The position numbers were made by a program, and so were the translations under genes. The notes under the pieces are model-generated. The model was not told where the DNA came from. It saw only the letters and a program-made list of their open reading frames with translations, and did no database searches. Shown here one piece after another: positions 21,801 through 36,300 of a stretch of DNA of 64,000 bases (positions are counted from its first letter, which is position 1; each line of letters starts with the position of its first letter). This stretch comes from Planctomycetaceae bacterium (lineage in GTDB: Bacteria > Planctomycetota > Planctomycetia > Planctomycetales > Planctomycetaceae). The stretch is taken from the NCBI GenBank assembly GCA_900299185.1, contig OMIV01000143.1, forward strand, positions 6,688 to 70,687, given 5' to 3'.

Positions 21801-22317
21801 ACAACTCGACGTACCAACTTTGTTGGTCGCATCTTCGAACGCCGCGACCGTTCGAGCCACGAGCCTGCTGGCTGAAGCTGCTCCCACGCTGGTCAACGAA
21901 CGGCCTGAGATCATCGAGACTGTTCGTCAGCGACTCCTCTCCAGAGCCGATGCGCAACGCGATTGGATGGCTCGCGTCGCACTGCTGCAGATCAATCTTT
22001 CGATGACGACAGCCACGGAAGAAGAACTCGCGCGAGAGCTCGAAGCCATAGCCACGGCGAACGACAGCAACGCAACCCGTTGGCTTAATGTCATCCCGAT
22101 TTTGAACCCGACGCTGACGCACTCATCAGCCCGAGTGCGAGCAGTTGCCGACGGACTTGCCAGGCGAGCAACGACCGCCGCGAGCCAGACCTCACCGCTT
22201 TGGGAAACCGCCGTTGAGTGGGAGCAACTGCAAGCCGCTCACGCACTCGGCGACCTGCCCCGTGAAGAGCAACTCGCCAAGCGGCTGACCGAGTTGTCGA
22301 CACCAGCAACCAAATGA
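15898..22317 (+). CDS. giant secreted TPR/helical-repeat protein (2139 aa)
   Basis: Signal-like N-terminus MLFVPRRCVVALMCCWLTGQPGVVVAQA. An uninterrupted Leu/Ala/Arg/Glu-rich helical repeat runs the whole length, with TPR-like units such as EATRAFDRALTKKPNRLDVLDAALSFGQSL and AQTLYQRAINAAPHEPQYREDFGNFWLS. No catalytic motif seen. Confidence 0.8.
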   Translation: MLFVPRRCVVALMCCWLTGQPGVVVAQAPSGQDASLKRYVELLERQPKSGTVFDKLYSQHAERGSLDELVSHYQQRMKSPPHDGAAAFIVGLIELQRGRDSAAVAALRAAESARPEDALVSLALSRALLLIGDLDEATRAFDRALTKKPNRLDVLDAALSFGQSLLRANRQQDADRIWKQLDQLFPNDPRVQERLAVTISTGGDHAAAAARFEKLSRSSAEPNQRVLWQVRALEERVLQGAKLAEVLGQLESLQGNLKSDSWIAKEVGQRIEQLFLRTDDLAGLTAYYQQQATTRPEDIGLQTRLSELLARRGKLDDALAVLLAAQQRHPTNAALRRSVIDWQLKLKRYPAAQQQFAELDRLEPRNADTLRGWGQAVWLDESQPAGSRREAALAIWMKLVESKPNDAITLLQTAELLQRHELDAEAQTLYQRAINAAPHEPQYREDFGNFWLSRNRRAEALAAWREIASGERQTHENQVRLASILHRAGELDEALTVLATACRDEASLADILKWIEWQRAARRYEGLAELIARASKLATDVDQQQHVQQAELEWLTDSGGLFDEITRTRQRCEQDPAATSWRRLAVLCRAARRWDEALAAIHRATDLEPGSVATWRESAQIAMSAERPHEALAIYRRLLTLDSAHRADVLRQVATLESRLGHVDPAIQAAREMTEVAPGQREYLDFFINLCLQHGRVEDALASLRRAVRAFPNDASLLMQLAGILAGQERLGEAIEVGWQGYSTAREPRDQVRIAERLALWHQQANRWPLFLEQFERRKREPAGEYAATLSLAAGYRAVGDFEAARRELATQLVSRPDDVELLRQLVLDAEAHHHWSDAAEFQRRLVERQPNFEERLKQILLMDRSGDETSSIQKARELGAELRDLPTFLNFSDEILNRGHFELAVRVVDSRLRANASEWPVRLRLGIALWRTGRQLGAQQRFREILVPVRTSNTSSATTAAKPNIATSTNDGVSISEQHWQRRAAATGMASFLFPHEFTDPRHLPRDMPEARIAARTALLLIGRGTVLKKDIDQYFQSLRRFEPALSTFADRMLAASPRSNDAAATPELDDVWEWYHALEPVVAQSHNIHLFRVRVRAALKLAEQPDVFSHWALVTAVPASPTLEANNGRPGNEPRTHELVTMAALPDLDERLAASRKIVEAGPYEWMKPRSTRDVESTAKEFASAADFFKLPADRRPEDIPAATLQAWGQAAVTTNDGPLFARLLEHELRQLARALTQPLKPEWQPNCRSLVAITSNRDAQKPDDKLLLRKVSSFLLNMALAPASPKIVSQEVIHQFEKPFDRESNELRDLRVIARAFVLWRAGQGAITANGKTSTSPGALHEQAQAALDWLQAALNETPNNYALRCELVLLLKEAELVARAIEVLKQAQPNDSLSLFHRDRTLVELGQVQRDDATVHAAARRLAALTTNSLTEREIAALLINLQERDLALQKVNELRRRSGHDLGLLGTLLKMYQQLEQPQLAAAVAHDILTRVPEYPVKSQGTYTLQSNTIIPDSLAVLEKAEKSFIEPLIASLDAELQVHPQAARPRELLKTYRALIGQAEVGAVRRDEVTKAQGLTAPQLLDRARQLSDEGQRATACELSVLAYRRDPKLLQSRFDDARKLFAAADRGSDLLALIVELKLAATPALQDSVIEFALERLADPQAADVATTVLTTAWPIIPAKRLDDIAQLHHPHLWRQSSPFTQWALQAVIPQTVDAAKQPWLGMMSRHDQTSSALTRQLDANGRAAVLREATLAARKTYPHWKTGEVILALIEADEGRTVDFERRLTALASEPDLPLQAQFVIADEIAKRQSVERMAIRVMEQLVKRPHAEARDLAKDPAIVLSKVYRRAGQSEACIPLLGSWFDQQTRYEDQAQQQAEAETSLRRIRNLDLAAGELSLHPVQALRYRLRALRLLAADKKTVPTRERLTLAADVLARTTDVLNKASPSDADSFFQQWLSAEQQLDVPTLLVASSNAATVRATSLLAEAAPTLVNERPEIIETVRQRLLSRADAQRDWMARVALLQINLSMTTATEEELARELEAIATANDSNATRWLNVIPILNPTLTHSSARVRAVADGLARRATTAASQTSPLWETAVEWEQLQAAHALGDLPREEQLAKRLTELSTPATK

Positions 22318-22468
22318 GTCGCTCATTCTGATATCGGAAGCTTCATCGTCGCTTCGTTTGAACTTGGCTCGTTCATCACGCGCCGAAGTGAAGACGCGAT
22401 GCACTCAAATCACCGCAGCACAAACACGGGTGTCTGTACTGCGGCGTCGAGATGTTGTTCCTCGCGGC

Positions 22469-25400
22469 TTAGATCGAATCGATCCAGTCAGCGATGAAGA
22501 TGAAGCCCAAGAGACGCTCGGTTGTTTGACGATTCACGCTGTCATCGGAAGTGGCCCCCAAGATGATCGCGGAGTCCGTCCCAGCGTTTCCGGCGATGAC
22601 GTCGGCTCCGGCATCGCCACGCATCAGGTCGTCACCGGCATTGCCGCGCAACGAATCATTGCCAACTCCACCGATCAGTGTGTCATTTCCACTACCGCCG
22701 TTGATCGAGTCGTTACCGGTGTAACCCGACAGAGCATCGTCGCCATCGTCGCCATTGAGCGTGTCGTTGCCGGCTCCACCATTGAGCGTGTCGTTACCCG
22801 CACCGCCGCTGATGAAGTCGTTGCCGGCTCGGCCCTTGAGCACGTCGGCACCATCCCCGCCATCCAGCGAGTCGTTGCCAGAACCGCCCAAGAGAGTGTC
22901 GTTGCCCACGCCGCCAATGAGCACCGCCGAACCCGAGAAGCTCGTCGCGTCCAACGTGTTGGCACTATCGCCGCCCGTGAGACGGACTCGATCAATCGAA
23001 CTGAGCGTGTCGGTATCGAAGCCAATGAAAGTGCTATCGCTGATCGTGAAATTCCGATCGCCCGAAGCGCTGATAGAGTCCACTCCCGCATCGCCGTTGA
23101 CGATGTCGCCGCCCAAGCCGGAGTCGAGCGAATCGTCTCCGTCGCCACCATTGAGTTGATCGGCTGCCGATCCCGAACGAATGGTGTCGTTCCCCGCGCC
23201 GCCATTGATGGTGACCGAACGAGAATATGCAGTCGTATCAATCGTGTTGGCAGCCGCGCTGCCGTTGATTGTCACGCGTTCGAACGGGCTAACAAGAACT
23301 TGGGCTCCATTGTTGAGGAACATGTCAATTCCATCGCCCGTGACATAAGTCTCGAAGAGCGTGAGCGTCGTCTGAGCTGTAAGACGCAGTACATCGTCTC
23401 CGTCTCCACCGTCGACAACATCGTCACCTGCTCCTGGGATTAAGGCGTCTCGACCAGAGCTACCGACGAGTTGGTCGTTACCGTCGTTGCCAGTCAACGA
23501 GTCATTGCCAGCTTCGCCATTCAGAAAGTCGTTCCCCAAGTCGCCCTGAAGTGAGTCGTTACCCGTTCCACCAAGTAGGTAGTCATCTCCGTCACTGCCC
23601 ATGAGGGAGTCGTTACCTATTTCGCCAACGAGATTGTCATTACCCGCGTTGCCTTGGATCTTGTCGTTGCCATCGCCTCCACGAATGAAGTCACTGTTAT
23701 TGCCACCAATCAACGTATCATTTCCGCCCTGCCCCGAGAGTCCCACAGGGCCCCGGAACTTCGACGCGTCGATGAAATCAGGCCCATCGGAACCAGAGAT
23801 GTTGGCAAATTCGATGCTGCGAAGCGTGTCGCGTCCGAGACCGACGGCCGAGGTATTGGTCAACACGTAGGACGGCGATGTGAAGAATTCGAGCAACTGA
23901 TCTTGGCCGCTGCCGCCAGCCACCAAATCGTCGCCGTAGTTGCTGGTAATGGTGTCGTCGCCGTCGCCCCCTAAGAGGGTGTCGTTCAATGGAGAGCCAA
24001 TTAAGAAGTCGCCTCCGGCACCACCGTTGAGCAACGATCGAGCGGTTTGACTCTGAAGAATGTCTTCGCCTTCGAGACCGAAGAACTGCGTGCTCCTCAG
24101 CGACGTATAAGCTTCGATAATCAGGTCGGTTTCGGCAGTACCTGTGACTGTCAGCGATTCGATGTCTGCGAAGGACATGAAGTGTGAGCGGTCATCGTCG
24201 ATGAAAACTTGATTGCCGAGGAATTCGATTCGACCCGCTCGCGGCAGCGTGTAACCCATGAAGTCGTTGCCCTGATCTCCGTTGATCACATCATCGCCGT
24301 AATAGGCTTCACCCTGACCGAGCGGCACATAGTCAAAAATGTCGTCGCCGGCGCCGCCGCTTTGAGTGTCGTCGCCATCATCGCCTTGCAACACGTCTTG
24401 GCCCGTTCCACCTCGCAGCACGTCGTTGCCAGGTCCACCCAGCAAGACGTCGTCACCACTCACTCCATCGAGAACGTCTTGGCCTACGTCACCGATCAAG
24501 ATGTCGCCACCGCCTCCACCATTCAGGCTGTCATCACCTTCGCCGCCATCCAATACATCGATGCCAGCACCGCCTTGGATGGTGTCATCTCCTCCATTGC
24601 CTTGGATGCCGTCGTTGTTGCGACCACCGATCAGCAGATCGTTGCCGTTGCTACCAGAAATCATGAGTGGTCTGGAGTACGCAGACGCATCGACTAGGCC
24701 GCCAAAGAAAAATCGACTGAGAGACAACGAGGCGTTCTCAATTCCGCTGAAGGTGGAATGGCCAAAAGTGTCAGACGGGAACGGGATCAATCCGCTGTTG
24801 GTAGCGACGTCTTCAAAACTCAAACCCGTAGAGATGACCGTCTGGAAGAACGCCTGGAATTCGGGTTCTCCCAAGAGGTGATCCAGTTCGGGACTTTCTC
24901 CGCGATGATGATTGAGAGCTTCACCCAGCTCGCCCCCGATCGAGTTCGATTTGATGAAGGCACTCAACGCCAAATTCATCTCATCGACACCGGCGGAGCC
25001 CAGCAAACTCTGGGTAGAAATTGTGACAGTGCCGGCTGGCAGGTCACTCGGCAATTGCCCTTCACCGATAATGAACTCGTAGCCCAACGTGACGTCAGAG
25101 TCGGTTAGCGTGATCTGTGAGAAAGATGACTCAACGAGCTGGTCATCACCCAGCCCACCATCCACCGAGTTAATGCCAGAGCCACCACTCAACGAATCGT
25201 TGCCCGCGCTGCCGCTGACGTCGTCATCGTCCTCGTCACCGGAGACCACGTCGTCGCCATCACCGCCATCGAGTAGGTCGTTGCCAGAGCCACCTGAAAG
25301 TAGGTCCGCTCCATCACCACCTTGCAGCAAGTCGTCTCCAAACCCGCCGAAGATGGATTCCGCTGCAGCACTGCCAATGACCGTATCGTTGCCAAACCCG

Positions 25401-28021
25401 GCATCGATTTGTGGCGCACCGTTAAATGCTGGTAGTCCCAGAATTTCGAGCCGATCATCGCCGCCCTGCAGTTGCACGGTGATGGATGAGAGCGACGACA
25501 TTGACGACGACGCAATGCGAACGGTGTGAGGATCCAGTTGCTCGCCGCCAATCGTCTGAATCAACAGCGTGTCTTCGTGGACGATCAGATCTCCGTTATC
25601 TGTCATCGAAATCGTCATCTGGTTGGCAACAGATGCGTATGGCGACTCGTTGACAGAAATCTGGGAGTTAACGGTTACTTCATTTGAGAAGTGCGTCACT
25701 TCGACGGTCACAGTCGGCGTAGAGATGAGATCACCAATACCGAAGCTGGCATCAGCCACAGATCCATTTGGCTCGACATAGACGACAGGCGTCGTGGTTG
25801 CGAACTCGTTGGGTTCGAGCGCAACTCGAACTTGATAGATGCCTCGCCCCTGTTGCTCGAAGGAGTAGTGGCCGTCTTCATCAGTCAGCCGCCACGGCTC
25901 TTCAGCAAGTCCATCGAAGTGACCATCGCCACTGACGGGATTGTTGAGCACGCCGTCGCCGTTGAGGTCGATGAAGACTCCTCGATGAGCAATCGCTGTT
26001 TCGTCTTCATCGCGATAGCTATTGCCGTTTGCGTCTTGGAAAACGGTGCCCGTGATGTCGAAGCGGCGGAAGTTACCAAAGTCCGCGACGGTGATTTCGC
26101 GACCGGGATGCACCGTGACGAGCTGGCTGCGCGTGTCATCTCGCAAGGTGATCAAGATCCGCGCGTAGTTGTTGGTCTCATCCAACTCGGTGAAGTGGTT
26201 CTCGGGATCCACGATCGCTTCGAGCCAGTATTGGCCCGGCTCTAAGCCCGCGACGTTGACCTCTTGGCCCGGCGTGCCTGCTCCATAGATGTCTTCCCAA
26301 CCGACTGAAATTTCTTGCTCGGTGTCGCAGCCCAGTCCACTGCCGTCTGGGTCAGCGTTGGGCAACGGCGGAGTCGTCGGGTACTGAGCAACGTCAATCA
26401 AGCAGAAGCTGGTCTTCTCGCCGCCTCGCACTTGCTCGCCCAACTCCGGCACACCGTCGCTGTTCGCATCGGGTGTTGCGGCAAAGAGCCGGTACTCGGC
26501 GAACTCGTTGAAGTGGATGTGATTGTGCTCGGGATGAAACTCGAAGAGCCCCGCGAGCCGTTCGGTGTAGCCACCTTGATCGTCATAGATCCGCTGATAG
26601 ACGTTCTGCGTGCCGTCGTGATTGTCTTCACCACCCACGATTCGCAGCGGTCCATTTCCAACGTTGGGAGTGCCCTGACTGAAGCGGATGACGTCGCCGT
26701 CGCGATAGACATCGCGCAGGCCATTAACGGGATCAACGACCAGATCCGGCAAGAGTGCGGCAGGGTCATCAGCCGTGCCAACCGGAGGCTGAACGACCTC
26801 GAAGGAACCCGCTTGAATGACGGGGTTATCACCCACCAGCGGCACTGAGTTGGCTGGCGGCGCAGTGATCTCTTCACCTTCAGGAGTGACTTCGCGAACG
26901 AGGTACTCACCGGCCGGTACGTCGTTGAAAACGTAGTAGCCCGGATGCACGACGATGTAGTCATCGAACAGTTCTTCTTGGGTGAAGGTCACAGTCGTTC
27001 GCAGCACTTCTTCAGTCAGTGGATCGAGCAGCTCGATCGTTACTCCGTTCTCGCCCTCTTCGCTGAAGTCGCGGAATCCGTTGCCGTTGCCGTCGAGGAA
27101 GACAAAGCCGCTGATGGAACCAGGCAACTCATGCAATCCGAAGTTGGCTGTTGCAGCAGACGATCCACCATCAACGGCAACAACTTGCACGTTCGAGTTG
27201 GTCGGCTGAGTGACTTCTAAGCCTGGAAGAGTTACGACACCGACCGCATACGTACCGCTCTCTAGTTCGGAGAAGTGATAGTTGCCTTCTGAGTCAGTGA
27301 GCTGAAGCGGTTCGGCGTTAGGAGTCTTGGTTGTGATCGCCGAGATCGACCAGTTGAGCAACGTGCCCTCATCTCCTTGAGCGCCGTCGACGATTTCCAA
27401 AGTCCAAGGTCCATCGACGCTGAGCCCGTCAAATACTGACAAGCTCTCGATCGGACGGAAGGAGCCGTTGAACGGTGCATTGCCCTCGGCAATCCCTAGA
27501 TCCGCTTCGTCATCGAATGTTGTGACTTGATAGTTGTCGCCACCACTACCGAGGTTCTCCGACAGCGTTACGCGGATCCCCTGCGGGCCGATGAGCGTCA
27601 ACGTTAAGTCGCCATCGAAGGTGTGAGTGAGCTCAACATTGACGTTGAGGTCGATAATGTTGCCACCTTCAAATCCGATGGAAAGAGGGCGAATGATCGT
27701 GATGCCTGATGTAATCGTGCCTACTTCTGGAATCGCCATCGGCAATCCGTCACCCGGATAAACTTCGCGCGGTGACTCGTAGGTGCCGTTGTTATTGAGG
27801 TCCAAGAACACGCCCACGCCCGCCAGTCCGGTGTCTCCAACGTCGCGAGCACCATTGCCGTTGAGGTCCTCGAAGACCGTGCCCGAGACAGCACCAGTCC
27901 CCGACAAAAGCTGCCGCGCTTCGAGCTGCTCGAGTCGCCGAGGATCGAGTCGCGAACGGTTCCGACGAGTGACCGACTTACCGATCGTCTTGATCCAACG
28001 ACGCCATGAATTGTGCAACAT
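22469..28021 (-). CDS. giant RTX (hemolysin-type Ca-binding repeat) protein with SdrD-B/Cna-B-like domains, a P-domain and a lysyl-oxidase-like domain
   Basis: 1850 aa. The N-terminus is Arg-rich with [12 protein letters not shown]. SdrD-B-like units include [31 protein letters not shown] and [32 protein letters not shown]. From about residue 852 onward (nt ~22502-25468) there are many GGxGxDxLx nonapeptides, e.g. [24 protein letters not shown] and [24 protein letters not shown]. Confidence 0.9.
26144..26764 (-). other. lysyl oxidase (LOX)-like copper amine oxidase domain inside the RTX protein (residues ~420-626)
   Basis: Motif-by-motif match to the animal LOX catalytic domain, recalled from memory. 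LPDLVVDP vs [24 protein letters not shown] vs [36 protein letters not shown] vs [21 protein letters not shown] (Cu ligands H499/H501/H503, nt 26513-26527). [11 protein letters not shown] vs EGHKASFCLED (K536). WEDIYGAG...[28 protein letters not shown] vs CYDTYGAD...[28 protein letters not shown] (Y579). Confidence 0.8.
27332..27739 (-). other. proprotein-convertase P-domain-like module (residues ~95-230) without an adjacent subtilisin domain
   Basis: [50 protein letters not shown]...[43 protein letters not shown] follows the P-domain pattern (H.y.GDL...L.sP.Gt...L...F.D.a...g.f.P...L..F.G....G.W.L.v.D....D.G.L..W.l). Confidence 0.65.
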
Positions 28022-28355
28022 CAGGCCCGACCTTTCTGCTCGACGAGTTCAGACAACGAGCGATTGAATAAGTAAGTGAGTGAGGGGCAGTCAGTGACCG
28101 GCGTGCCCAAGCCGTCCTCGCCATCCGCTGCGGATCTATCCAATCCGTTCATCGCCACAGTGGAGCGGAAGCTAGGGCAACCTCAACAGGCTGAGCAAGA
28201 TAGGCAGCATGAAACCAAGCCGACTGATCTTGAGCCGTTTTTGCCACTCGCATTATGTAGAGGCCAGCCAGGCAACCTGAGTCGTCGTCGAGGGAATCAT
28301 GGGACGATGACGACAGACGGCGCGGCCTTGGCTCTTCGGTGCGAAAGGATTCGCT

Positions 28356-29927
28356 ATGCGTTCGGCTCTGCTCTTGCCGGGCTTGGTGTTATGGGCCTGT
28401 ATTGCTGGTGCGATTGGATCGTCGGTCGCAGGGGCTGCTGAGCCTCCGTTTGCTGGCGTTGTCGCCAACGACGAAGCCTTGGTCCGCAGCGGCGCGGACG
28501 AGGACTATTACCCGACGATGAAGCTCAGCCGCGGCGCGCCTTTGAATGTCGTGCGTGAGGACTTCGGCTGGTACGTCATTGAACCGCCGACGGGCAGCTA
28601 CAGCTGGGTTAATGCCGAGCACGTAGAACGCCGCGCGGGCAATCGAGGTATCGTCACTGCCGACACTTGGGACCGACTGGGTTCTGATCTGGATATCGCG
28701 GACAATGAGCCCGTTCGTCATCGATTGGCCAAGCGCGAGACCGTTGAGATTCTGGGTGAAGCCGAAGTCTCCACCGAACGTGGCAAGGTCAAGATGCTGA
28801 AGATCAAGCCACCCCGCGGTGAGTATCGCTACATCCGCAAAGGCGATGTAGAGCCCGCCACCGCTGATTCACCCAAGGCGGGCGAGTTGCCCTTGGCGCT
28901 GACCGACAAAAAGAAGCCCGCAGCTTCCAAACCGGAAAGCAAGGCCGGGAAGGGCAGTGACGAAAAGCCCATCGCCAATTTGCTCCCCGCTAACGACAAC
29001 GAAGGCGTCCCAACTCCCAAGGTCGAACAAGAAACTCCCGCAGCACTGCCGGAGCCGAAAGCCACTAAGCCCACTGAAGCAGTCGCATCCTCTGAAATCC
29101 CGCCGGGCCACATTGATGCCAACGTCCGACTGAAGCAGATCGACGATGAGTTCCGAGTCATGGCTGAAAAGCCCTCGGCTGAATGGAACTTGGCCAGCAT
29201 TCGGGACCAATACACCGAGCTCCGCGGCTACATCGAGGACGCTGACTTTCGTAAGGAAGTGGATAAGCGACTGGCTGCGGTCGGTCGTTATCAGACGCGC
29301 TACAACGACTTCATCGCCGTGCAGCAGATCATGAAAGATACTGAAGCTCGCGACGAACAGATCCGGCAACAATTCTTACAGGGCCGACAAAACGTCGCGA
29401 TGCAGACGCCGGTAACAACTCATGTTTCAAGATCGAACCAAACTCCAACCAGCAGCGACCCGTTCGCTCAACCAACGACTCAGCTAACACCACAGCCTCA
29501 GCCCAGCACTCAGCCTCGTCAGCCACAACCACAAGCTGGTCAACAGCCTCAACAGTGGCCCTATCGACCACAACAGGCATGGGGAGCGACTCAACCGCAG
29601 AACGGGCGACCGACCATGCCCGGTGTGCAGCCGACTCCAGCAACCGGACCGAGCTTCATGACTCCGCCGCTGCTACCTCGGAAGTATGACGGAGCAGGCA
29701 TCGTGCAACGCTCGGCCCTGAACCGTCCTGGTTGGCCGCAGCATGTGTTGATCGCTCCCGATGGCCGAGTCTTGACGTACCTTCAAGCTGGCCCCGGAGT
29801 TGATCTCGACCGTTACGTCGGCAAGTCGATGGGCATGATCGGTCAACGAGGCTTCCGCCAAGACTTGAATGCGGATCTGCTGGTGGTGCAACAAGCCGCT
29901 CCGGTGCGTTTAAAGACCGGGCCGTAG
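28356..29927 (+). CDS. secreted SH3b-domain protein with coiled-coil and Pro/Gln-rich low-complexity region
   Basis: 523 aa with signal peptide MRSALLLPGLVLWACIAGAIGSSVAGAA. SH3b-like region ALVRSGADEDYYPTMKLSRGAPLNVVREDFGWYVIEPPTGSYSWVNAEHV. P/Q tract QPTTQLTPQPQPSTQPRQPQPQAGQQPQQWPYRPQQ. Confidence 0.7.
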   Translation: MRSALLLPGLVLWACIAGAIGSSVAGAAEPPFAGVVANDEALVRSGADEDYYPTMKLSRGAPLNVVREDFGWYVIEPPTGSYSWVNAEHVERRAGNRGIVTADTWDRLGSDLDIADNEPVRHRLAKRETVEILGEAEVSTERGKVKMLKIKPPRGEYRYIRKGDVEPATADSPKAGELPLALTDKKKPAASKPESKAGKGSDEKPIANLLPANDNEGVPTPKVEQETPAALPEPKATKPTEAVASSEIPPGHIDANVRLKQIDDEFRVMAEKPSAEWNLASIRDQYTELRGYIEDADFRKEVDKRLAAVGRYQTRYNDFIAVQQIMKDTEARDEQIRQQFLQGRQNVAMQTPVTTHVSRSNQTPTSSDPFAQPTTQLTPQPQPSTQPRQPQPQAGQQPQQWPYRPQQAWGATQPQNGRPTMPGVQPTPATGPSFMTPPLLPRKYDGAGIVQRSALNRPGWPQHVLIAPDGRVLTYLQAGPGVDLDRYVGKSMGMIGQRGFRQDLNADLLVVQQAAPVRLKTGP

Positions 29928-32181: not shown

Positions 32182-32573
32182 CGCGTGAGATCCGTCTCTT
32201 CGATGAGACATGCAATGTTCTGGTTGTTGCCAAGTTTGCTAACCGCAGTGTTCCAAAGGCTGAACGATGCAAACTGCGACTTAACGCTCAATTGTGAAAC
32301 AGCCTGCGATCGGCTCCCAACCTTCGTTCGGGTTATGAGGATTGCAACGGTCGTCATGGCCATGTGGTGCGGGTTGCACGGGTTAGCAAGCTCGCCACCC
32401 GCGAGCTTGCTCTTACGTCCGACATGAATGTCCGCTGAGGCACATCGGGCAAGTGAGTTGCTCTTGGCAGATCCGCTTTGCGCCCAAGTTGGGTTCGCAG
32501 CCAGTGTAGACCACGGACGGGTCGGAGTTGGCTGCGCGTATCTGCCGTTCAATCTCCATCGCAAGTTGTTCTC

Positions 32574-33251
32574 ATGAAACTTCGCAACTGGCTGGCCCGC
32601 GCTGTTCGTCCGGTAGTCTCTTCCCGCCTCAACAACGCCACCCAATCGCGTCGCTCTACATACCTATCGCGCCGCCTCACCGCCGCCACTCTCGAAACTC
32701 TGGAAGATCGCGCCTTGCTGTCGTCGATCTCGGCCAGCCTCGTGAACGGCGACTTAACAATCAGCGATTCAGACGCGACCGGTAAGAACAACTTCCTCTC
32801 GGTCAGTGTGAGCGGCTCGAACCTCGTTGTTTCAGACTCCTTTGAAACATTTATTGCGGCTCCGTCCGGTGGGGTGCTCAGCAATGGAAACACGACGTTG
32901 ACGATTCCGCTGGCCTCAGTGACCGGCACATTGACCATTGATGGGGGCAAGGGCACAGACAACATCTCGATCAACGCGCTCAATGGTTTGCTGGGCGGAC
33001 TGTCGGTCAATGGTGGCGAAGGCGATGACTCCGTCACGTTTAATGGAGACATCACATTCGCGACGAACGCCAGTCTCGATGTTGATCTTCAGAACGATGC
33101 TGCCACACCCGGAGTGGACCAAGTCACCGTCAATAACGATGCGAATCTGGTGCTATCTGGCACCGGGCCGGCGACGATGAAGGTCAGCAAGAGCATTCAA
33201 TTTAATCCGGGGTCGAGCCTCATCACGGCAAACGGCAACCTCACACTCTAA
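32574..33251 (+). CDS. giant exported protein B, N-terminal piece (leader plus beta-helix-like region), ends at an in-frame TAA
   Basis: ATG at 32574 gives MKLRNWLARAVRPVVSSRLNNATQSRRSTYLSRRLTAATLETLEDRALLSS. It continues with LTISDSDATGKNNFLSVSVSGSNLVVSD...GGKGTDNISINALNG...NGGEGDDSVTFNGD. TAA at 33249-33251 is in the same frame as ORF 33321..39281. Confidence 0.65.
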   Translation: MKLRNWLARAVRPVVSSRLNNATQSRRSTYLSRRLTAATLETLEDRALLSSISASLVNGDLTISDSDATGKNNFLSVSVSGSNLVVSDSFETFIAAPSGGVLSNGNTTLTIPLASVTGTLTIDGGKGTDNISINALNGLLGGLSVNGGEGDDSVTFNGDITFATNASLDVDLQNDAATPGVDQVTVNNDANLVLSGTGPATMKVSKSIQFNPGSSLITANGNLTL

Positions 33252-33320
33252 GCCAATCAACAAGCTGTCGCGTCGACCGGTGAGTTCGGCGGCATTCGAC
33301 TTGATAACTCCACGATCGCG

Positions 33321-36300
33321 GTGACGGGCACGGGCACGTTGTCGATGGCCGGCACGGGTGGCAGTGTGGGACGTGGAACGCTCGGAATTGAGGTACGCGG
33401 CGGCAGCACTGTTTCAGGCGGGACGACGGGAACGATGACGCTCGTCGGGCACGGTGGAGCGACAACCGATACCGACTCGCAAGGTATTCATGTGCGCGAC
33501 GGAATCGTCACTTCGCTCGGCGCGAACGTCAGTCTCACTGGCTTTGGTGGCAATGCAGGTTCGGGAACCGCGTTGGGGGTGCTCGTGAATCGGAACTCGA
33601 CAGAGACGAAAGTCACGGCCGGCGGTTCGGGCAATGTGACCGTGATCGGCACGGGTGGCTCAGGCAGCGGCAATTTGAATGTTGGAGTCGCAGTTGCTGG
33701 AGGCATTATTACATCCAGTGGCGGCAATGTGACCGTCACTGGCATAGGCAGTGGGAACGCGTCCGGGAAATTGAATATCGGTGTCGGTGTTGTGGGCGGG
33801 ACCATCGAAGCAACGGGCTCGGGCACGCTGACGGTGACGGGAACCGGCGGGGCGGGAGCAGCGGCTCACGGAATCGACTTCAACATCACCGGCGCATTTG
33901 GAACTCCACCCGCGAATATCTCGACTGTGAATGGCACTCTCAGCGTGATTGGCACTCCAGGAGCGGGCGATGGTTCGTTCGGCATCAACTTGTGGAAGAA
34001 CGGCACGATTTCAACCACGGGTACTGGCAATGCATCGCTCAAGACGGACAGCCTCGAAATCGACGTTTCAGACACACCAGGCACGATCAACGTCGGTGCC
34101 AATGCGATCAAGATCGTCCCAGCGACCAATGGAGTGACGCTCGACCTATCTTCAGCCGAATATGCTCGCATCTCGGCGGGCAGAATTCTCTACAACGGCA
34201 CAATCGACGGTAAGACGCCGACGTCGAATCCGACAGTCGATCTTTCCGTGAGCACCAATGCAGCCTCTGAATCCGGCCAGACAAAAGTGACCGTGACAGC
34301 AACGGCTTCTGCGGCGGTCAGTGGCGATCAAACCGTGACGGTGGGAGTCAGTGGCAGCGGAATTACATCGAACGATTACACGTTGTCGGGGACGACGATC
34401 ACCATCCCCAGCGGCAAGCAATCGGGCAGTGTGACATTCACGGTGCAAGACGACTCAGAGAACGAAGGCTCCGAGACCGCAACGATCTCGATCTCGAATC
34501 CGTCATCAGGCGTAACGCTCGGTAAGAGCAAGTCTCAAAACGTCGTCATCACAGACAACGATGGTCCGACCTCGGTCGATATACCGCAAACCGGAACCGG
34601 GCCGGTCACGATGAAGTTGGTTGGCGGTAACATCGTCATTACTCAAGACGGCAAGACGTTGGCGCAGATCCCAGCGTCCGATCAGCCCCTTCAAATCAAC
34701 GGCACTGCGGCTAACGATGACGTCTTCATCCTCGACCTCTCTGGCGGCGATCCGACTCCAACAGGCGGGCTGATTTTCAACGGCGGAGCAGGCGGCAATG
34801 ACGTGTTGCGAATTGTCGGCACAGGCCAAGACGCCACGTATTCGCCGGATAGTTTCGTCACCGGCAATGGCGTCATCGAGGTCAACGGTAAGACGATCAC
34901 GTTCGTCGGGCTCGAACCCGTCGACATGTTCGGCTTCGGTACTGTCACACTCAATCTGCCTAACGGAGACGACATCCTCACGGTGACGAATGATGTCGAC
35001 TTCACATTCGGCGGAATGAACCCTGCCATTCGAGTTGCTGGTACGTCCGGCGGTGTGGCTATTGAGACGGTTGCCATCTGGAGCGGTTCCACGCTCGTCA
35101 TCGATACCACTCTGAACTCAGATGGCGACGATAGCATCACGATCAACGGCGCCGATCTGACCGCCGCCAACATCTCGAATCTGACGATCAATACGGGTTC
35201 CGGATCGGATGCCATCGCCATCAATGGTGATGTGACTCTCGACGGCAACTTGGCCATGACCACCGCGGCAGGAGCGATCACTCAAGCAGGCTCAGCCGTC
35301 AGTGTCGGCGGGACGACCACCATCAATACCGGGTCGGCGGACATTGCACTTACCAGCGCAACGAATGACTTCGTTGGCCCTGTCACTCTGACCGGCGCGA
35401 ACATTTCGATCGCCGATGCCAACGACATGACGCTGACCAGCGTCACCGCGTCAGGCGACGTCTTGGTAACAACCGACGACGCACTCACATTGATCGGCAC
35501 GATCAACGCGGGTGATGGCACCATCACGCTCAACGTGAATACGGACGGAGCAGGGGCCGACGACTTCACCATGCTGCCTGGCTCAGTCATCACGACGTTG
35601 AATAGCACCTCGGACGCGGTTGTCATCACGGTTAATAACTTGGGTGGTGGCACAGGCGACGCCATCATCCAACTCATCACTACGGCCAAAGACTGCGGCC
35701 CGACGCTTGGTCGAGTCACCATTGATGCCAACGGCGGAGCAGTTGTCGACGGCAACGCGGGATCGGTGAACGTGGTCTCTGGAGCCACGATTCTGCTCGG
35801 CCAAGAAGGTGTCGGTTCGGCGATCGATACGTTCGATACCGAAGTCGGCATGACCGAAGGCGTCGGTGGTTCGGGCGGCTTCTATGTGCTGAACACCGGC
35901 AATCTGACAGTTGGTGGATTGAGCGCCACGATCGGCATCTCGACCACCACCGGAGACATCGATCTCCGAACGACGGGCTCGCTGACTGTTACGGAAGATG
36001 TCGACTCGACCGGAGCAACCGGCAACATCTTGTTGAGTGCCATCGAGAGCGCTGGATTCGGCAGCGACCTGACGATCAACGACAATCTCTCGATCAGCTC
36101 GCCAGGCGGCAGCATTCAATTGCTGGGCGGCGACAACGTCACGATTGGAACGGGCGGCTCAATCTCAGCACCGACCGGCAGCATCACCATTAGCGGAGAC
36201 AGCGGCGATCTCGATCCCGATGGAGCAAAACTGACAGTTGCCGCGCAGCTTGTGTCTGGCTTGGGAACCGCGATCAACGGCGGCAACGACAACGACAAGT

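What the first reader, a model, noticed from the sequence alone, without database searches (positions are those of the whole stretch)
26144..26764. Lysyl-oxidase-like copper amine oxidase domain embedded in a 1850-aa RTX protein
Residues ~420-626 match the animal lysyl oxidase catalytic domain motif by motif; details are in the feature entry. The Cu site H-x-H-x-H is present within [12 protein letters not shown], the same spacing as [11 protein letters not shown]. A Lys sits in the GEKTSFCL context (LOX has GHKASFCL), and a Tyr in WEDIYGAG (LOX has CYDTYGAD). These are the two residues that form the LTQ cofactor. The C-terminal PG.Y.L...V.P......E.DE/Y.NN block is also present. LOX cross-links lysines in extracellular matrix proteins. 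Here the domain sits between Cna-B/SdrD-like stalk domains and about 1000 residues of Ca-binding RTX repeats. This suggests a secreted or surface enzyme that could covalently cross-link surface, holdfast or matrix proteins, or prey and host proteins. I am not aware that this LOX-plus-RTX architecture has been characterised.
Basis: partly seen in the sequence, partly recalled or inferred. Interest (0 to 1): 0.7.

Follow-up and report, generated by a model that had tools for sequence, protein, structure and literature searches.

The report
Surface-displayed bacterial lysyl oxidase giant
A 1,850-residue surface protein of a freshwater planctomycete carries an intact relative of the copper enzyme domain that animals use to cross-link collagen, set among adhesin-type stalk modules and followed by about 1,000 residues of calcium-binding repeats; related bacteria keep the same layout, and what the enzyme acts on has not been tested.

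Summary
Window 26144-26764 (minus strand) encodes residues 420-626 of an 1,850-aa ORF (22469-28021). It matches Pfam Lysyl_oxidase above the curated cut-off (40 bits against 20.4). A profile of its relatives hits human LOXL2 (5ZE3, E 2.8e-16), and an AlphaFold model (pLDDT 87.5) has LOXL2 as its best PDB fold match (E 9.5e-9). The copper histidines (H499/H501/H503, plus H496), the cofactor pair K536/Y579, the LOXL2 calcium-site residues and one disulfide (C540-C565) are invariant in nine homologues with the same layout. That layout is a planctomycete N-terminal surface-export motif, SdrD_B modules, a P-domain, LOX and then RTX repeats. LOX is the best-conserved part (70% identity against 22-49% elsewhere). 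It probably buds out of a split SdrD_B module, as ligand-binding domains do in RTX adhesins. Bacterial LOX domains are known and very common in metagenomes, usually fused to surface or secretion modules; RTX occurs in about one in ten and was acquired more than once. No type I secretion genes or conserved neighbours were found. The substrate is unknown. The organism's own giant surface proteins are very lysine-poor, which argues against self-matrix cross-linking. Verdict: a real LOX family member in an uncharacterised, conserved variant architecture.

The parts
22469..28021 (-). Whole gene: 1,850-aa exported multidomain protein (stop codon included)
   Evidence: ORF list and translation. The exact protein occurs on freshwater metagenome contigs. 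Nine full-length homologues have the same layout.
27902..27943 (-). N-terminal planctomycete cell-surface export motif [14 protein letters not shown] (residues 27-40); no hydrophobic Sec-type core
   Evidence: Weak Pfam Planc_extracel hit at residues 29-42. The motif is conserved in alignment A3. It occurs only 3 times in the six-frame translation of the window, each time at the N-end of a large ORF. The maximum Kyte-Doolittle value over 11 residues in the first 70 aa is 0.89. Literature: RRLxxExLExRxLLA is a proposed export signal of surface giants (PMC8567305).
27773..27892 (-). SdrD_B module 1, N-terminal half (residues 44-83)
   Evidence: Alone it scores 24.8 bits over profile positions 6-37. 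Joined to residues 232-297 it scores 55.0 bits over profile positions 6-87 of 112.
27341..27649 (-). Proprotein-convertase P-domain (residues 125-227), inserted in split SdrD_B module 1
   Evidence: Pfam PF01483 46.7 bits. Present in 10 of 10 family members. Chimera test.
27131..27328 (-). SdrD_B module 1, C-terminal half (residues 232-297)
   Evidence: Chimera test; closing hairpin [16 protein letters not shown].
26858..27118 (-). SdrD_B module 2, body (residues 302-388)
   Evidence: Pfam PF17210, profile positions 2-75 of 112. Foldseek matches SdrD and UafA B domains over about 87 columns at rmsd 1.5-4 A.
26144..26764 (-). Lysyl-oxidase catalytic domain (residues 420-626; the fold starts at LPDLV 424-428)
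   Evidence: Pfam 40 bits above the 20.4 cut-off. Profile against 5ZE3 gives E 2.8e-16. AlphaFold pLDDT 87.5 and pTM 0.81. Foldseek top hit 5ZE3, E 9.5e-9, TM 0.56. Mean identity to homologues is 70%, the highest of any segment.
26513..26536 (-). Copper site HPEHNHIH (H496, H499, H501, H503)
   Evidence: Aligned to LOXL2 H623/H626/H628/H630. Invariant in A3 and A4. Coordinates checked.
26414..26416 (-). K536, the LTQ lysine and the only lysine in the LOX domain
   Evidence: Aligned to LOXL2 K653. Invariant in A1, A3 and A4. Lysine count.
26285..26287 (-). Y579, the LTQ tyrosine
   Evidence: Aligned to LOXL2 Y689. Invariant in A1, A3 and A4.
26327..26404 (-). C540...C565, the only two cysteines of the whole protein and the predicted single disulfide
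   Evidence: Aligned to LOXL2 C657 and C673, which form a disulfide in 5ZE3 (PMC5899467). Invariant in A3. Cysteine count.
26168..26188 (-). ELDETNN (E612, D614, N617, N618): structural Ca2+ site, together with D426-L427 at 26741-26746
   Evidence: Aligned to LOXL2 E722, D724, N727 and N728. LOXL2 Ca2+ ligands are D549, L550, E722, D724, N727 and N728 (PMC5899467). All are invariant in A3. The D426/L427-to-D549/L550 match rests on my recalled LOX 'PDLV' start motif, not on a tool alignment.
26069..26128 (-). [20 protein letters not shown] (residues 632-651): probable closing hairpin of SdrD_B module 2, making LOX an insert in a split module
   Evidence: It has the same xVxVxxGxxxxxxxFG pattern as the ends of modules 1 and 3. 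An HMM built from those two ends finds 632-650 as the only other hit in the protein (5.6 bits, E 0.0014). DFGNF is conserved in all homologues. The Pfam chimera test was inconclusive (44.3 to 45.4 bits).
25739..26059 (-). SdrD_B module 3 (residues 655-761)
   Evidence: Pfam SdrD_B 32.1 bits; fragments P0002 and P0003 show the same LOX-then-SdrD_B order.
22592..25399 (-). RTX calcium-binding region (residues 875-1810): about 38 nonapeptides in blocks separated by non-repeat modules
   Evidence: Pfam HemolysinCabind 283.7 bits; 38 regex matches listed; 14% Asp, 19% Gly and no Cys.
22472..22591 (-). Conserved non-repeat C-terminal tail (residues 1811-1850, ...[17 protein letters not shown])
   Evidence: Conserved in the A3 consensus; 43% mean identity. 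Its role is not tested; it could be a beta-roll cap or a C-terminal secretion signal.

Best explanation
The gene encodes an exported, cell-surface-associated giant protein of a freshwater planctomycete. Its one enzymatic module is a catalytically competent member of the lysyl oxidase family.

Shown here:
- The LOX fold is present.
- The copper-binding histidines, the Lys/Tyr pair that forms the LTQ cofactor, the structural Ca2+ site and one disulfide are all present and invariant across a conserved protein family.
- LOX is the most strongly conserved part of that family.

Inferred mechanism:
- The protein is exported using the planctomycete N-terminal RRL..LE.R.LLS motif. Type I secretion through the RTX end is a less likely alternative.
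- The roughly 1,000-residue RTX region and the SdrD_B modules bind Ca2+ outside the cell and stiffen into a stalk or anchor.
- The P-domain and the LOX domain bud sideways from split SdrD_B modules, as ligand-binding domains do in RTX adhesins.
- The LOX domain binds Cu2+ and converts K536 and Y579 autocatalytically into lysine tyrosylquinone.
- It then oxidises primary amines (peptidyl lysine being the family's canonical substrate) to aldehydes, releasing H2O2 and NH3, at the cell surface or on whatever the protein touches.

The substrate and the biological purpose are not established. Candidates are covalent attachment or cross-linking of foreign proteins, amine scavenging, and peroxide production.
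For: Domain identity:
- Pfam Lysyl_oxidase scores 40 bits against a 20.4 cut-off.
- The profile hits 5ZE3 at E 2.8e-16.
- The AlphaFold model has pLDDT 87.5, and its Foldseek top hit is 5ZE3 at E 9.5e-9 with probability 1.0.

Catalytic competence:
- H496, H499, H501, H503, K536, Y579, C540, C565, E612, D614, N617 and N618 are invariant in 10 proteins that share only 37-56% identity overall.
- H499, H501, H503, K536 and Y579 are also invariant in 64 more distant multidomain relatives.
- Relatives that lost the histidines exist (P0011 and P0026), so retention here is informative.
- The LOX segment shows 70% mean identity against 22-49% for other segments.
- An archaeal homologue is an active, BAPN-sensitive amine oxidase (PMC6452851).

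Export and surface location:
- The N-terminal motif is present, and literature ties it to surface giants.
- There is no Sec-type hydrophobic core.
- The composition is Cys-free and acidic, and the RTX region is large.
- Across the family, LOX is fused to extracellular or secretion modules. In 64 proteins these were PPC 29, SdrD_B 13, P-domain 11, RTX 7, T9SS tail 4 and dockerin 4.

Split-module display:
- The chimera of the two halves of module 1 scores 55.0 bits against 24.8 for the N-half alone.
- A closing hairpin follows the LOX domain.
- The two-domain model has pTM 0.75.
- The RTX-adhesin precedent is described in PMC12077191.
Against: - No enzymatic data exist for this protein or any close relative.
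- No T1SS genes or any conserved neighbours were found in this window or in four homologous loci, so the export route is unresolved.
- Only one of the five disulfides of the animal catalytic domain is retained.
- The N-terminal 77 positions of the Pfam model are not matched, so the active-site surroundings differ from the animal enzymes.
- The insertion of LOX into SdrD_B module 2 rests on a short motif (5.6 bits). Pfam and Foldseek could not confirm it.
Confidence: 0.7

Rival explanations
1. Self-matrix cross-linker. The surface-tethered LOX oxidises lysines of the bacterium's own surface, holdfast or matrix proteins, so that the resulting allysines condense into covalent cross-links, as in animal collagen and elastin.
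For: Peptidyl lysine is the canonical LOX substrate. The protein sits among other giant secreted proteins in the window. LOX domains are often fused to adhesin-type modules such as cadherin-like, FG-GAP, SdrD_B and LapA.
Against: The obvious candidates are extremely lysine-poor. The LOX protein itself has 8 Lys in 1,850 aa. The two other giants in the window have 1.4% K. Non-LOX RTX giants next to homologues have 0.36-0.71% K, against 3-7% for cytoplasmic proteins. No lysine-rich, collagen-like or elastin-like partner gene is conserved next to the gene.
Confidence: 0.12
2. Broad-specificity extracellular amine oxidase used for metabolism or competition. The domain deaminates free or polymer-bound primary amines near the cell to release ammonium for uptake, or to generate H2O2 against competitors. 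The giant scaffold only keeps it at the surface.
For: The only characterised prokaryotic LOX in the held library has relaxed specificity (taurine, glycine, polyamines, aminoglycosides, polymyxin), and its authors propose nitrogen acquisition or competition (PMC6452851). The family is very widespread in environmental bacteria with many alternative export tags.
Against: Frequent fusion to PPC, P-domain, cadherin-like and other binding modules, together with display from a split stalk module, suggests action on a bound macromolecular target rather than on small solutes. No amine or ammonium transport genes are linked.
Confidence: 0.25
3. Released type I secretion substrate. The RTX region and C-terminal tail act as a T1SS export signal and Ca2+-driven folding ratchet, as in serralysin-type enzymes, and the protein is released into the medium rather than held on the cell.
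For: About 38 nonapeptides and a conserved non-repeat C-terminal tail. No Sec signal, no Cys outside the LOX domain, and an acidic composition. A Hyphomicrobiaceae protein has LOX + RTX + Peptidase_M10_C, the classic serralysin-type T1SS layout.
Against: No ABC transporter, membrane-fusion protein or TolC-like gene was found in 64 kb here or in homologous loci. The N-terminus carries the planctomycete surface-export motif, which other non-RTX giants in the same window share. The RTX region is interrupted by large non-repeat modules and is far longer than a secretion domain needs to be.
Confidence: 0.3
4. Non-catalytic module. The LOX-like domain is a metal-binding or purely structural beta-sandwich (CARDB-like) that has lost amine-oxidase function.
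For: The C-terminal third resembles CARDB domains. Some relatives (P0011, P0026) have lost the histidine triad. Four of the five animal disulfides are absent.
Against: All residues needed for Cu binding and LTQ formation are invariant across homologues at 37-56% overall identity, and LOX is the most conserved segment. The whole-domain fold match is to LOXL2, not merely to CARDB.
Confidence: 0.07

Closest known systems
Animal lysyl oxidases (LOX, LOXL1-4; structure 5ZE3 of human LOXL2)
   Same: Same Pfam family above the cut-off. Same fold (Foldseek E 9.5e-9). Same HxHxH copper motif preceded by a fourth His, the same LTQ Lys (G-x-K-x-SFCL) and Tyr (D-x-Y), the same Ca2+ ligands (E-x-D-x-x-NN plus PDL) and the C657-C673 disulfide.
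   Different: About 18-20% identity over the structural alignment. Only 1 of 5 catalytic-domain disulfides is kept. The N-terminal 77 Pfam positions are not matched by sequence. There is no SRCR domain or propeptide. It is embedded mid-protein in a bacterial adhesin-like scaffold rather than at the C-terminus. Lys-536 is the only lysine in the domain.
Stand-alone prokaryotic LOX proteins (Haloterrigena turkmenica HTU-LOX; Streptomyces, myxobacterial and other 'lysyl oxidase family proteins')
   Same: Same domain with the conserved catalytic residues. HTU-LOX shows that prokaryotic members can be active, BAPN-sensitive amine oxidases (PMC6452851). The nearest small relatives are 250-400-aa planctomycete proteins with signal peptides (P0004-P0010, 42-47% identity).
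   Different: Those are single-domain or nearly so; the 2015 survey found only three multidomain prokaryotic cases (PMC4448552). This one is a 1,850-aa, eight-plus-module surface protein. It keeps the first His (H496), which that survey reported as absent from bacterial sequences.
RTX adhesins of Gram-negative bacteria (LapA, MpIBP, Aeromonas AhLap)
   Same: A giant size, Ca2+-dependent beta-sandwich extender modules, and functional domains that bud from 'split' extender domains. A C-terminal RTX beta-roll region is followed by a short non-repeat tail (PMC12077191).
   Different: The budding module is an oxidase, not a lectin, vWFA or ice-binding domain. There are only three extender modules. 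The RTX part makes up half the protein and is interrupted by non-repeat modules. The N-terminus is a planctomycete export motif, not a LapA-type retention module. No T1SS or LapG/LapD genes lie nearby.
Serralysin-type T1SS enzymes (catalytic domain + RTX + Peptidase_M10_C)
   Same: An enzyme domain followed by an RTX beta-roll. A true LOX version of this layout exists in Hyphomicrobiaceae (L029, 614 aa).
   Different: The window protein has no Peptidase_M10_C match, has adhesin modules on both sides of the enzyme, and has an N-terminal export motif.
CARDB domains (PDB 2KL6, 3IDU)
   Same: The C-terminal beta-strands and the D/E-x-x-NN metal site of the LOX core match CARDB by sequence and fold.
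   Different: CARDB lacks the His hairpin, the Lys strand and the Tyr strand. It covers less than half of the LOX domain (TM 0.25-0.30 on the query).

Membership tests
Lysyl oxidase family (Pfam PF01186; LTQ-dependent copper amine oxidases) | Significant match to the family profile above the curated threshold | tested here: met
   40.0 bits against a gathering score of 20.4, E 4.2e-10, profile positions 78-197 of 204. All 10 full-length homologues and 64 of 64 surveyed relatives also match.
Lysyl oxidase family (Pfam PF01186; LTQ-dependent copper amine oxidases) | Copper-binding His-x-His-x-His hairpin | tested here: met
   H499, H501 and H503 (with H496 upstream) align to LOXL2 H626, H628 and H630. 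Invariant in A3 and A4.
Lysyl oxidase family (Pfam PF01186; LTQ-dependent copper amine oxidases) | Lys and Tyr precursors of the lysine tyrosylquinone cofactor at the homologous positions | tested here: met
   K536 aligns to K653 and Y579 to Y689. Both are invariant in every alignment made.
Lysyl oxidase family (Pfam PF01186; LTQ-dependent copper amine oxidases) | LOX catalytic-domain fold | tested here: met
   AlphaFold model with pLDDT 87.5 and pTM 0.81. Foldseek best PDB hit is 5ZE3 at E 9.5e-9, probability 1.0, TM(query) 0.56 over 250 columns. The next hits are CARDB domains at E >= 2.7e-3.
Lysyl oxidase family (Pfam PF01186; LTQ-dependent copper amine oxidases) | Structural Ca2+ site (LOXL2 D549, L550, E722, D724, N727, N728) | tested here: met
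   E612, D614, N617 and N618 are aligned by HMMER. D426 and L427 are assigned by the conserved PDL start motif. All are invariant in A3. Ligand list from PMC5899467.
Lysyl oxidase family (Pfam PF01186; LTQ-dependent copper amine oxidases) | Five conserved disulfides of the animal catalytic domain | tested here: not met
   Only C540 and C565 exist in the whole protein. They correspond to C657-C673. This is a feature of the animal subfamilies, not of the Pfam family. Most bacterial relatives also have 2 Cys in the domain (89 of 162).
Lysyl oxidase family (Pfam PF01186; LTQ-dependent copper amine oxidases) | LTQ actually formed; BAPN-sensitive amine oxidase activity | not testable with these tools
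   Requires expression, quinone staining or mass spectrometry, and an H2O2-release assay.
Lysyl oxidase family (Pfam PF01186; LTQ-dependent copper amine oxidases) | Juxtaposition of the three His with the Tyr (and the Lys) in 3D | not testable with these tools
   Model coordinates are not exposed. In 5ZE3 the Lys and Tyr are 16.6 A apart in the precursor state, so only the His-Tyr cluster would be diagnostic.
RTX proteins / type I secretion substrates | Tandem GGxGxDxUx nonapeptides near the C-terminus | tested here: met
   HemolysinCabind 283.7 bits. 38 regex matches between residues 892 and 1810.
RTX proteins / type I secretion substrates | No cleavable N-terminal Sec signal; uncleaved C-terminal signal | tested here: inconclusive
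   There is no hydrophobic N-terminal core and the C-terminal tail is conserved. However, the N-terminus carries a different, planctomycete-specific export motif.
RTX proteins / type I secretion substrates | Linked ABC transporter / membrane-fusion protein / outer-membrane factor genes | tested here: not met
   None found among the ORFs of the 64-kb window that were scanned or in loci of homologues. T1SS genes can be unlinked, so this does not exclude T1SS.
RTX adhesins (LapA/MpIBP/AhLap type) | Functional domains projecting from split beta-sandwich extender domains | tested here: inconclusive
   For the P-domain it is met: the chimera of the two SdrD_B halves scores 55.0 bits against 24.8. 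For LOX the support is moderate: a closing-hairpin HMM hit at 632-650, E 0.0014. Pfam and Foldseek were uninformative.
RTX adhesins (LapA/MpIBP/AhLap type) | N-terminal retention module and long tandem extender region | tested here: not met
   No LapA or retention-domain hit in this protein. There are only three SdrD_B modules.
Planctomycete cell-surface proteins with the N-terminal RRLxxExLExRxLLA motif (Pfam PF07595) | Motif near the N-terminus after a basic stretch | tested here: inconclusive
   [14 protein letters not shown] at residues 27-40 fits the core LExRxLL[AS] by eye and is conserved in homologues. The Pfam hit is below threshold (11.5 bits against 25.5), and the motif is two residues shorter than the R. 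baltica consensus.

The most novel reading that the evidence does not exclude
The protein is a 'catalytic adhesin'. A planctomycete displays a lysyl oxidase on a Ca2+-stiffened stalk. On contact, the enzyme converts lysines (or other amines) of a foreign surface, such as algal, cyanobacterial or detrital protein, into aldehydes. These then form covalent Schiff-base or aldol links, giving enzymatically cured, irreversible attachment or prey and particle capture. This would be a bacterial use of the chemistry that animals use to build extracellular matrix. The extreme lysine poverty of the cell's own exoproteome would then be a self-protection trait.
Probability: 0.15. Interest if true: 0.8.

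Novelty: new variant of a known kind. Interest (0 to 1): 0.5.

Why it matters
Lysyl oxidases are studied almost entirely as animal matrix cross-linkers and drug targets. Their function in prokaryotes is called 'enigmatic' or 'cryptic' in the only biochemical study held here (PMC6452851).

This locus, with the survey around it, shows three things:
- Bacterial LOX domains are abundant. There are 1,986 50%-identity clusters at E <= 1e-30, although that count also includes CARDB-repeat proteins.
- They are predominantly parts of extracellular, adhesin-like or secretion-tagged multidomain proteins, not the simple single-domain enzymes of the 2015 survey.
- One planctomycete family has kept a LOX domain with every catalytic residue intact as the most conserved element of a giant surface protein.

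That turns the open question of what bacterial LOX does into a concrete, testable case: a defined domain to express, a defined surface location, and clear alternative substrates.

It also offers a disulfide-poor LOX with a single lysine and two cysteines. Such a protein may be much easier to produce and crystallise in the mature LTQ state than the animal enzymes, for which only a zinc-bound precursor structure exists.

Tried and rejected
1. Lysine depletion as a LOX-specific self-protection signature. The protein has 0.43% K, and K536 is the only Lys in the domain. But 162 LOX relatives have a median of about 1% K both inside and outside the domain. Non-LOX giant secreted neighbours are equally poor, at 0.36-1.4%. 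I therefore rejected it as specific evidence. It remains an argument against self-matrix substrates.
2. Conserved gene neighbourhood. Four homologue loci plus this one share no neighbours and have no copper chaperone, T1SS or lysine-rich partner.
3. T1SS genes in the window: none among the ORFs of 150 aa or more that were scanned.
4. Pfam chimera test for LOX being inserted in SdrD_B module 2. The gain was negligible (44.3 to 45.4 bits). Foldseek on the two-domain model aligned only the 87-column N-part of the module. A custom hairpin HMM gave only modest support.
5. The search for related loci with the 26-sequence alignment failed because no stretch was conserved enough. It was repeated with the 11 closest sequences.
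6. The promoter and terminator scan of 22200-28450 found no promoter-like site and no more terminator-like sites than in shuffles.
7. No second LOX copy exists in the window (tblastn).
8. Literature searches for LOX with Planctomycetes or with RTX proteins returned nothing relevant.
9. The word-indexed homologue search returned only 26 hits and missed the full-length family. The exhaustive profile search was needed.
10. The hypothesis of a single origin for LOX-RTX fusions was rejected. RTX-bearing proteins outside this family have non-RTX nearest neighbours in LOX-domain identity.

Full report
**What is at the coordinates**

The finding lies on the minus strand. Window 22469-28021 is a single ORF of 1,850 codons. 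Window 26144-26764 translates exactly to its residues 420-626.
- [13 protein letters not shown] (H496, H499, H501, H503)
- GGEKTSFCL (K536, C540)
- GWEDIYGAG (Y579)
- [24 protein letters not shown]

I verified the codon coordinates of each. The exact protein is on record from freshwater metagenome assemblies (ENA ERZ937630 and ERZ23495462, contigs up to 101 kb). The window's other genes include DUF1501 and PSCyt2/PSD1 proteins, which I recall as families greatly expanded in Planctomycetota. Together with the N-terminal motif described below, they point to that phylum.

**Is it really a lysyl oxidase domain?**

Yes, by four independent lines of evidence.
- Pfam Lysyl_oxidase matches residues 493-629 at 40.0 bits against a curated cut-off of 20.4 (E 4.2e-10).
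- Searching the PDB with the single sequence puts human LOXL2 (5ZE3) first, but weakly (E 0.073). A profile of the domain and 25 relatives hits 5ZE3 at E 2.8e-16.
- An AlphaFold model of residues 400-640 is confident (pLDDT 87.5, pTM 0.81). Its best PDB fold match is again 5ZE3 (E 9.5e-9, probability 1.0, TM 0.56 over 250 columns). The next matches are CARDB domains, about five orders of magnitude worse.
- The HMMER alignment, read with an offset of 317 between 5ZE3 chain numbering and LOXL2 numbering (my own counting), maps the functional residues one for one.

| Role | Window protein | Human LOXL2 |
|---|---|---|
| His preceding the Cu motif | H496 | H623 |
| Copper ligands | H499, H501, H503 | H626, H628, H630 |
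| LTQ lysine | K536 | K653 |
| LTQ tyrosine | Y579 | Y689 |
| Disulfide | C540-C565 | C657-C673 |
| Ca2+ ligands | E612, D614, N617, N618 | E722, D724, N727, N728 |

The LOXL2 paper names D549, L550, E722, D724, N727 and N728 as the ligands of a structural Ca2+. It also names C657-C673 as a disulfide (PMC5899467). The window domain starts with LPDLV. From my memory of the human LOX sequence, this is the same motif that begins the animal catalytic domain and contains D549/L550.

The 'C-terminal block' of the finding is therefore the Ca2+ site. It is shared with CARDB domains and is not LOX-specific on its own.

**Differences from the animal enzymes**
- Only one of the five catalytic-domain disulfides is retained. 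C540 and C565 are the only cysteines in the whole 1,850-residue protein.
- The first 77 positions of the Pfam model are not matched by sequence.
- Identity over the structural alignment is about 18%.

**A conserved family, not a one-off fusion**

The word-indexed homologue search found only 26 relatives. Most are 250-400-aa stand-alone planctomycete proteins, and one is named 'lysyl oxidase family protein' by NCBI.

The exhaustive profile search found 11,991 clusters at E <= 1e-3 and 1,986 at E <= 1e-30. These are upper bounds, because proteins with 15-26 CARDB repeats also score through profile positions ~200-240.

Nine cluster representatives align with the window protein end to end at 37-56% identity: P0065, P0069, P0071, P0074, P0096, P0112, P0131, P0081 and P0062. 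All nine have P_proprotein, SdrD_B and Lysyl_oxidase, and eight of them also have RTX repeats.

Across this family the LOX segment is by far the best conserved. Its mean identity is 70%, against 22-49% for every other segment. The residues H496, H499, H501, H503, K536, Y579, C540, C565, P425-D426-L427, E612, D614, N617 and N618 are all invariant.

In 64 more distant multidomain relatives, the three copper histidines and the Lys and Tyr are again invariant. Two relatives (P0011, P0026) have lost the histidines. Loss therefore does happen, and retention here indicates selection for catalysis.

An archaeal family member has been shown to be an active amine oxidase sensitive to 3-aminopropionitrile, with relaxed substrate specificity (PMC6452851).

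**Anatomy of the whole protein**
- **N-terminus.** Residues 27-40 read [14 protein letters not shown] and follow a basic stretch with no hydrophobic core. This fits the planctomycete motif RRLxxExLExRxLLA. [quoted passage not shown] In Tuwongella it marks 52 proteins, including 8 of the 10 longest, several of which were recovered only in the SDS-soluble envelope fraction (PMC8567305). The Pfam model for it scores below threshold here. Even so, the core LE.R.LL[SA] occurs only three times in the six-frame translation of the window, each time at the start of a large ORF, and it is conserved in the homologues.
- **Split module 1.** Residues 44-83 and 232-297 are the two halves of one SdrD_B module, split by the P-domain (residues 125-227). 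The N-half alone scores 24.8 bits, while the joined halves score 55.0 bits over profile positions 6-87.
- **Split module 2.** Residues 302-388 form the body of a second SdrD_B module. The LOX domain follows. After it comes [20 protein letters not shown] (632-651), which has the same xVxVxxGxxxxxxxFG closing-hairpin pattern as the ends of modules 1 and 3. An HMM built only from those two ends picks residues 632-650 as the sole additional hit in the protein (5.6 bits, E 0.0014). DFGNF is conserved in all homologues.
- **Interpretation of the split modules.** I infer, with moderate confidence, that LOX also buds from a split module. This is the arrangement by which RTX adhesins project their ligand-binding domains away from the stalk axis (PMC12077191). 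Pfam and Foldseek could not confirm it. The pTM of 0.75 for residues 297-655 is compatible with a fixed two-domain unit.
- **C-terminal half.** A third SdrD_B module (655-761) and a poorly conserved segment lead into about 940 residues holding 38 RTX nonapeptides. These sit in blocks separated by non-repeat modules and end in a conserved 40-residue tail.

**Export route and context**

No ABC transporter, membrane-fusion or TolC-type gene was found in the window ORFs that were scanned. Those neighbours include:
- a TPR giant
- an SH3 protein
- GpsA
- a CYTH protein
- a Calx-beta giant
- housekeeping genes

None was found in four loci of homologues either, and those loci share no neighbours with this one or with each other. 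The gene therefore appears to stand alone.

The N-terminal motif is shared with non-RTX giants in the same window. I therefore favour the planctomycete-specific export route and give type I secretion about 0.3.

LOX-RTX fusions nevertheless exist in a classic T1SS layout elsewhere. A 614-aa Hyphomicrobiaceae protein has LOX + RTX + Peptidase_M10_C. RTX-bearing LOX proteins outside this family have non-RTX nearest neighbours in LOX-domain identity, so the fusion arose at least three times.

**What the wider family says about function**

Relatives were found in 223 species-level genomes. The 80 best loci come from many phyla and include the following groups:
- Planctomycetota
- Verrucomicrobiota
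- Hydrogenedentota
- Nitrospirota
- Alphaproteobacteria
- myxobacteria

Many of those LOX-containing ORFs are 800-2,400 aa long.

In 64 relatives of 450-1,100 aa, the fusion partners were as follows:

| Partner module | Proteins (of 64) |
|---|---|
| PPC | 29 |
| SdrD_B | 13 |
| P_proprotein | 11 |
| CARDB | 10 |
| CarboxypepD_reg | 9 |
| RTX | 7 |
| T9SS sorting tail | 4 |
| Dockerin | 4 |
| Cadherin-like | 5 hits (two Pfam models, 3 + 2) |
| NIDO | 3 |
| LapA | 1 |

PEP-CTERM-like tails are also visible in P0010, P0011 and P0026. A 2,397-aa Planctomycetaceae protein combines LOX with FG-GAP, cadherin-like and RTX modules.

The bacterial LOX domain is thus an extracellular enzyme module. It is attached interchangeably to surface-display, binding and secretion modules of the kind found on secreted proteases and adhesins. 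That favours a macromolecular, surface-bound target, but it does not identify the target.

**Lysine poverty**

The protein has 8 lysines in 1,850 residues, and K536 is the only one in the LOX domain. This holds across the family, where members have 3-11 Lys.

I tested whether this is a LOX-specific self-protection trait, and it is not. The two other giants in the window have 1.4% K. Non-LOX RTX giants next to homologues have 0.36-0.71% K, against 3-7% for cytoplasmic proteins.

The consequence is that the cell's own giant surface proteins offer very few lysines to cross-link. This weakens the self-matrix reading and leaves foreign proteins or other amines as the more likely substrates.

**Comparison with what is known, and novelty**

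Bacterial and archaeal LOX homologues have been known since 2015. That survey listed five bacterial phyla, not including Planctomycetes. [quoted passage not shown] It also reported the first histidine as absent from bacterial sequences (PMC4448552).

This clade differs on all three points. No paper in the held library connects LOX with RTX proteins or with Planctomycetes. Precomputed Pfam annotation of this very protein does already list the domains.

I therefore classify it as a genuine member of the LOX family in a new, conserved variant architecture. It is uncharacterised rather than unseen.

**Verdict**

| Claim | My estimate |
|---|---|
| LOX membership | about 0.95 |
| Catalytic competence | about 0.75 |
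| Surface or extracellular location | about 0.8 |
| Split-module display of LOX | about 0.6 |
| Type I secretion | about 0.3 |
| Self-matrix cross-linking | about 0.1 |
| Overall interest | 0.5 |

Noticed in passing
window 32478-39281 (+): ORF 32478-33251 (257 aa, carrying the N-terminal LETLEDRALLSS export motif) and ORF 33321-39281 (1,986 aa; Calx-beta, DUF5649, galactose-binding-like and matrixin-like C-end) are in the same frame. A single TAA at 33249-33251 separates them, and the peptide reads through smoothly. This is probably one gene of roughly 2,250 aa with an in-frame stop, either a pseudogene or an assembly error.
   Followed up: partly
window ~2247 (+), ~32700 (+), ~27925 (-): The planctomycete motif [LVIM]E.R.[LVMI][LMF][SATD] occurs only three times in the six-frame translation of the window. 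Each time it follows a basic stretch near the N-end of a large secreted-looking ORF. This is consistent with a shared non-Sec export signal (PMC8567305).
   Followed up: partly
window 27131-27892 (-), residues 44-297: The proprotein-convertase P-domain (residues 125-227) is inserted inside an SdrD_B module. The N-half alone scores 24.8 bits and the two halves joined score 55.0 bits. P-domain and PPC modules, usually seen on secreted proteases, are the commonest partners of bacterial LOX domains.
   Followed up: partly
window 26144-26260 (-), residues ~588-626; P0027, P0028, P0035 and others: The last ~40 profile positions of the LOX domain (the beta-strand plus the E-x-D-x-x-NN calcium site) match CARDB domains by sequence and fold. 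Giant proteins with 15-26 CARDB repeats score as well as true LOX proteins in the profile search. The LOX core may derive from a CARDB-like sandwich. Counts of 'LOX homologues' from profile searches are inflated by this.
   Followed up: partly
window-wide; loci L083 and L084: Giant secreted proteins of these planctomycetes are strikingly lysine-poor whether or not they carry LOX (0.36-1.4% K against 3-7% in cytoplasmic proteins) and nearly cysteine-free. The cause is unknown. Possibilities are protection from a surface lysyl oxidase, protease resistance, or nitrogen economy.
   Followed up: partly
P0011, P0026 (alignment A1): Two LOX-family proteins have lost the histidine triad and the SFCL cysteine but keep the Lys and Tyr positions. 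They end in PEP-CTERM-like tails (VPEP...hydrophobic...RRR), and P0026 also has a dockerin hit. These are possible pseudo-enzymes.
   Followed up: no
L029 9980-11824 (+), Hyphomicrobiaceae MAG; also L020, L028: These are compact LOX-RTX proteins of about 600-700 aa. L029 has LOX at the N-end followed by RTX and a serralysin-type Peptidase_M10_C domain, the classic layout of a type I secreted enzyme. They would be simpler experimental models of an RTX-linked LOX.
   Followed up: partly
L003 (CAZZAQ010000009.1): The closest genomic LOX-domain relative (57% identity, in an 870-aa ORF) sits on a contig of a MAG labelled 'uncultured Bifidobacterium sp.'. That is an implausible host for this planctomycete-type protein, so the contig is probably mis-binned.
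   Followed up: no
window 28022-28355: The LOX gene and the divergently oriented 523-aa SH3-domain gene (28356-29927) share a 334-bp intergenic region with no sigma-70-like promoter match. Terminator-like hairpins across the scanned stretch (22200-28450) are no more frequent than in shuffles.
   Followed up: no
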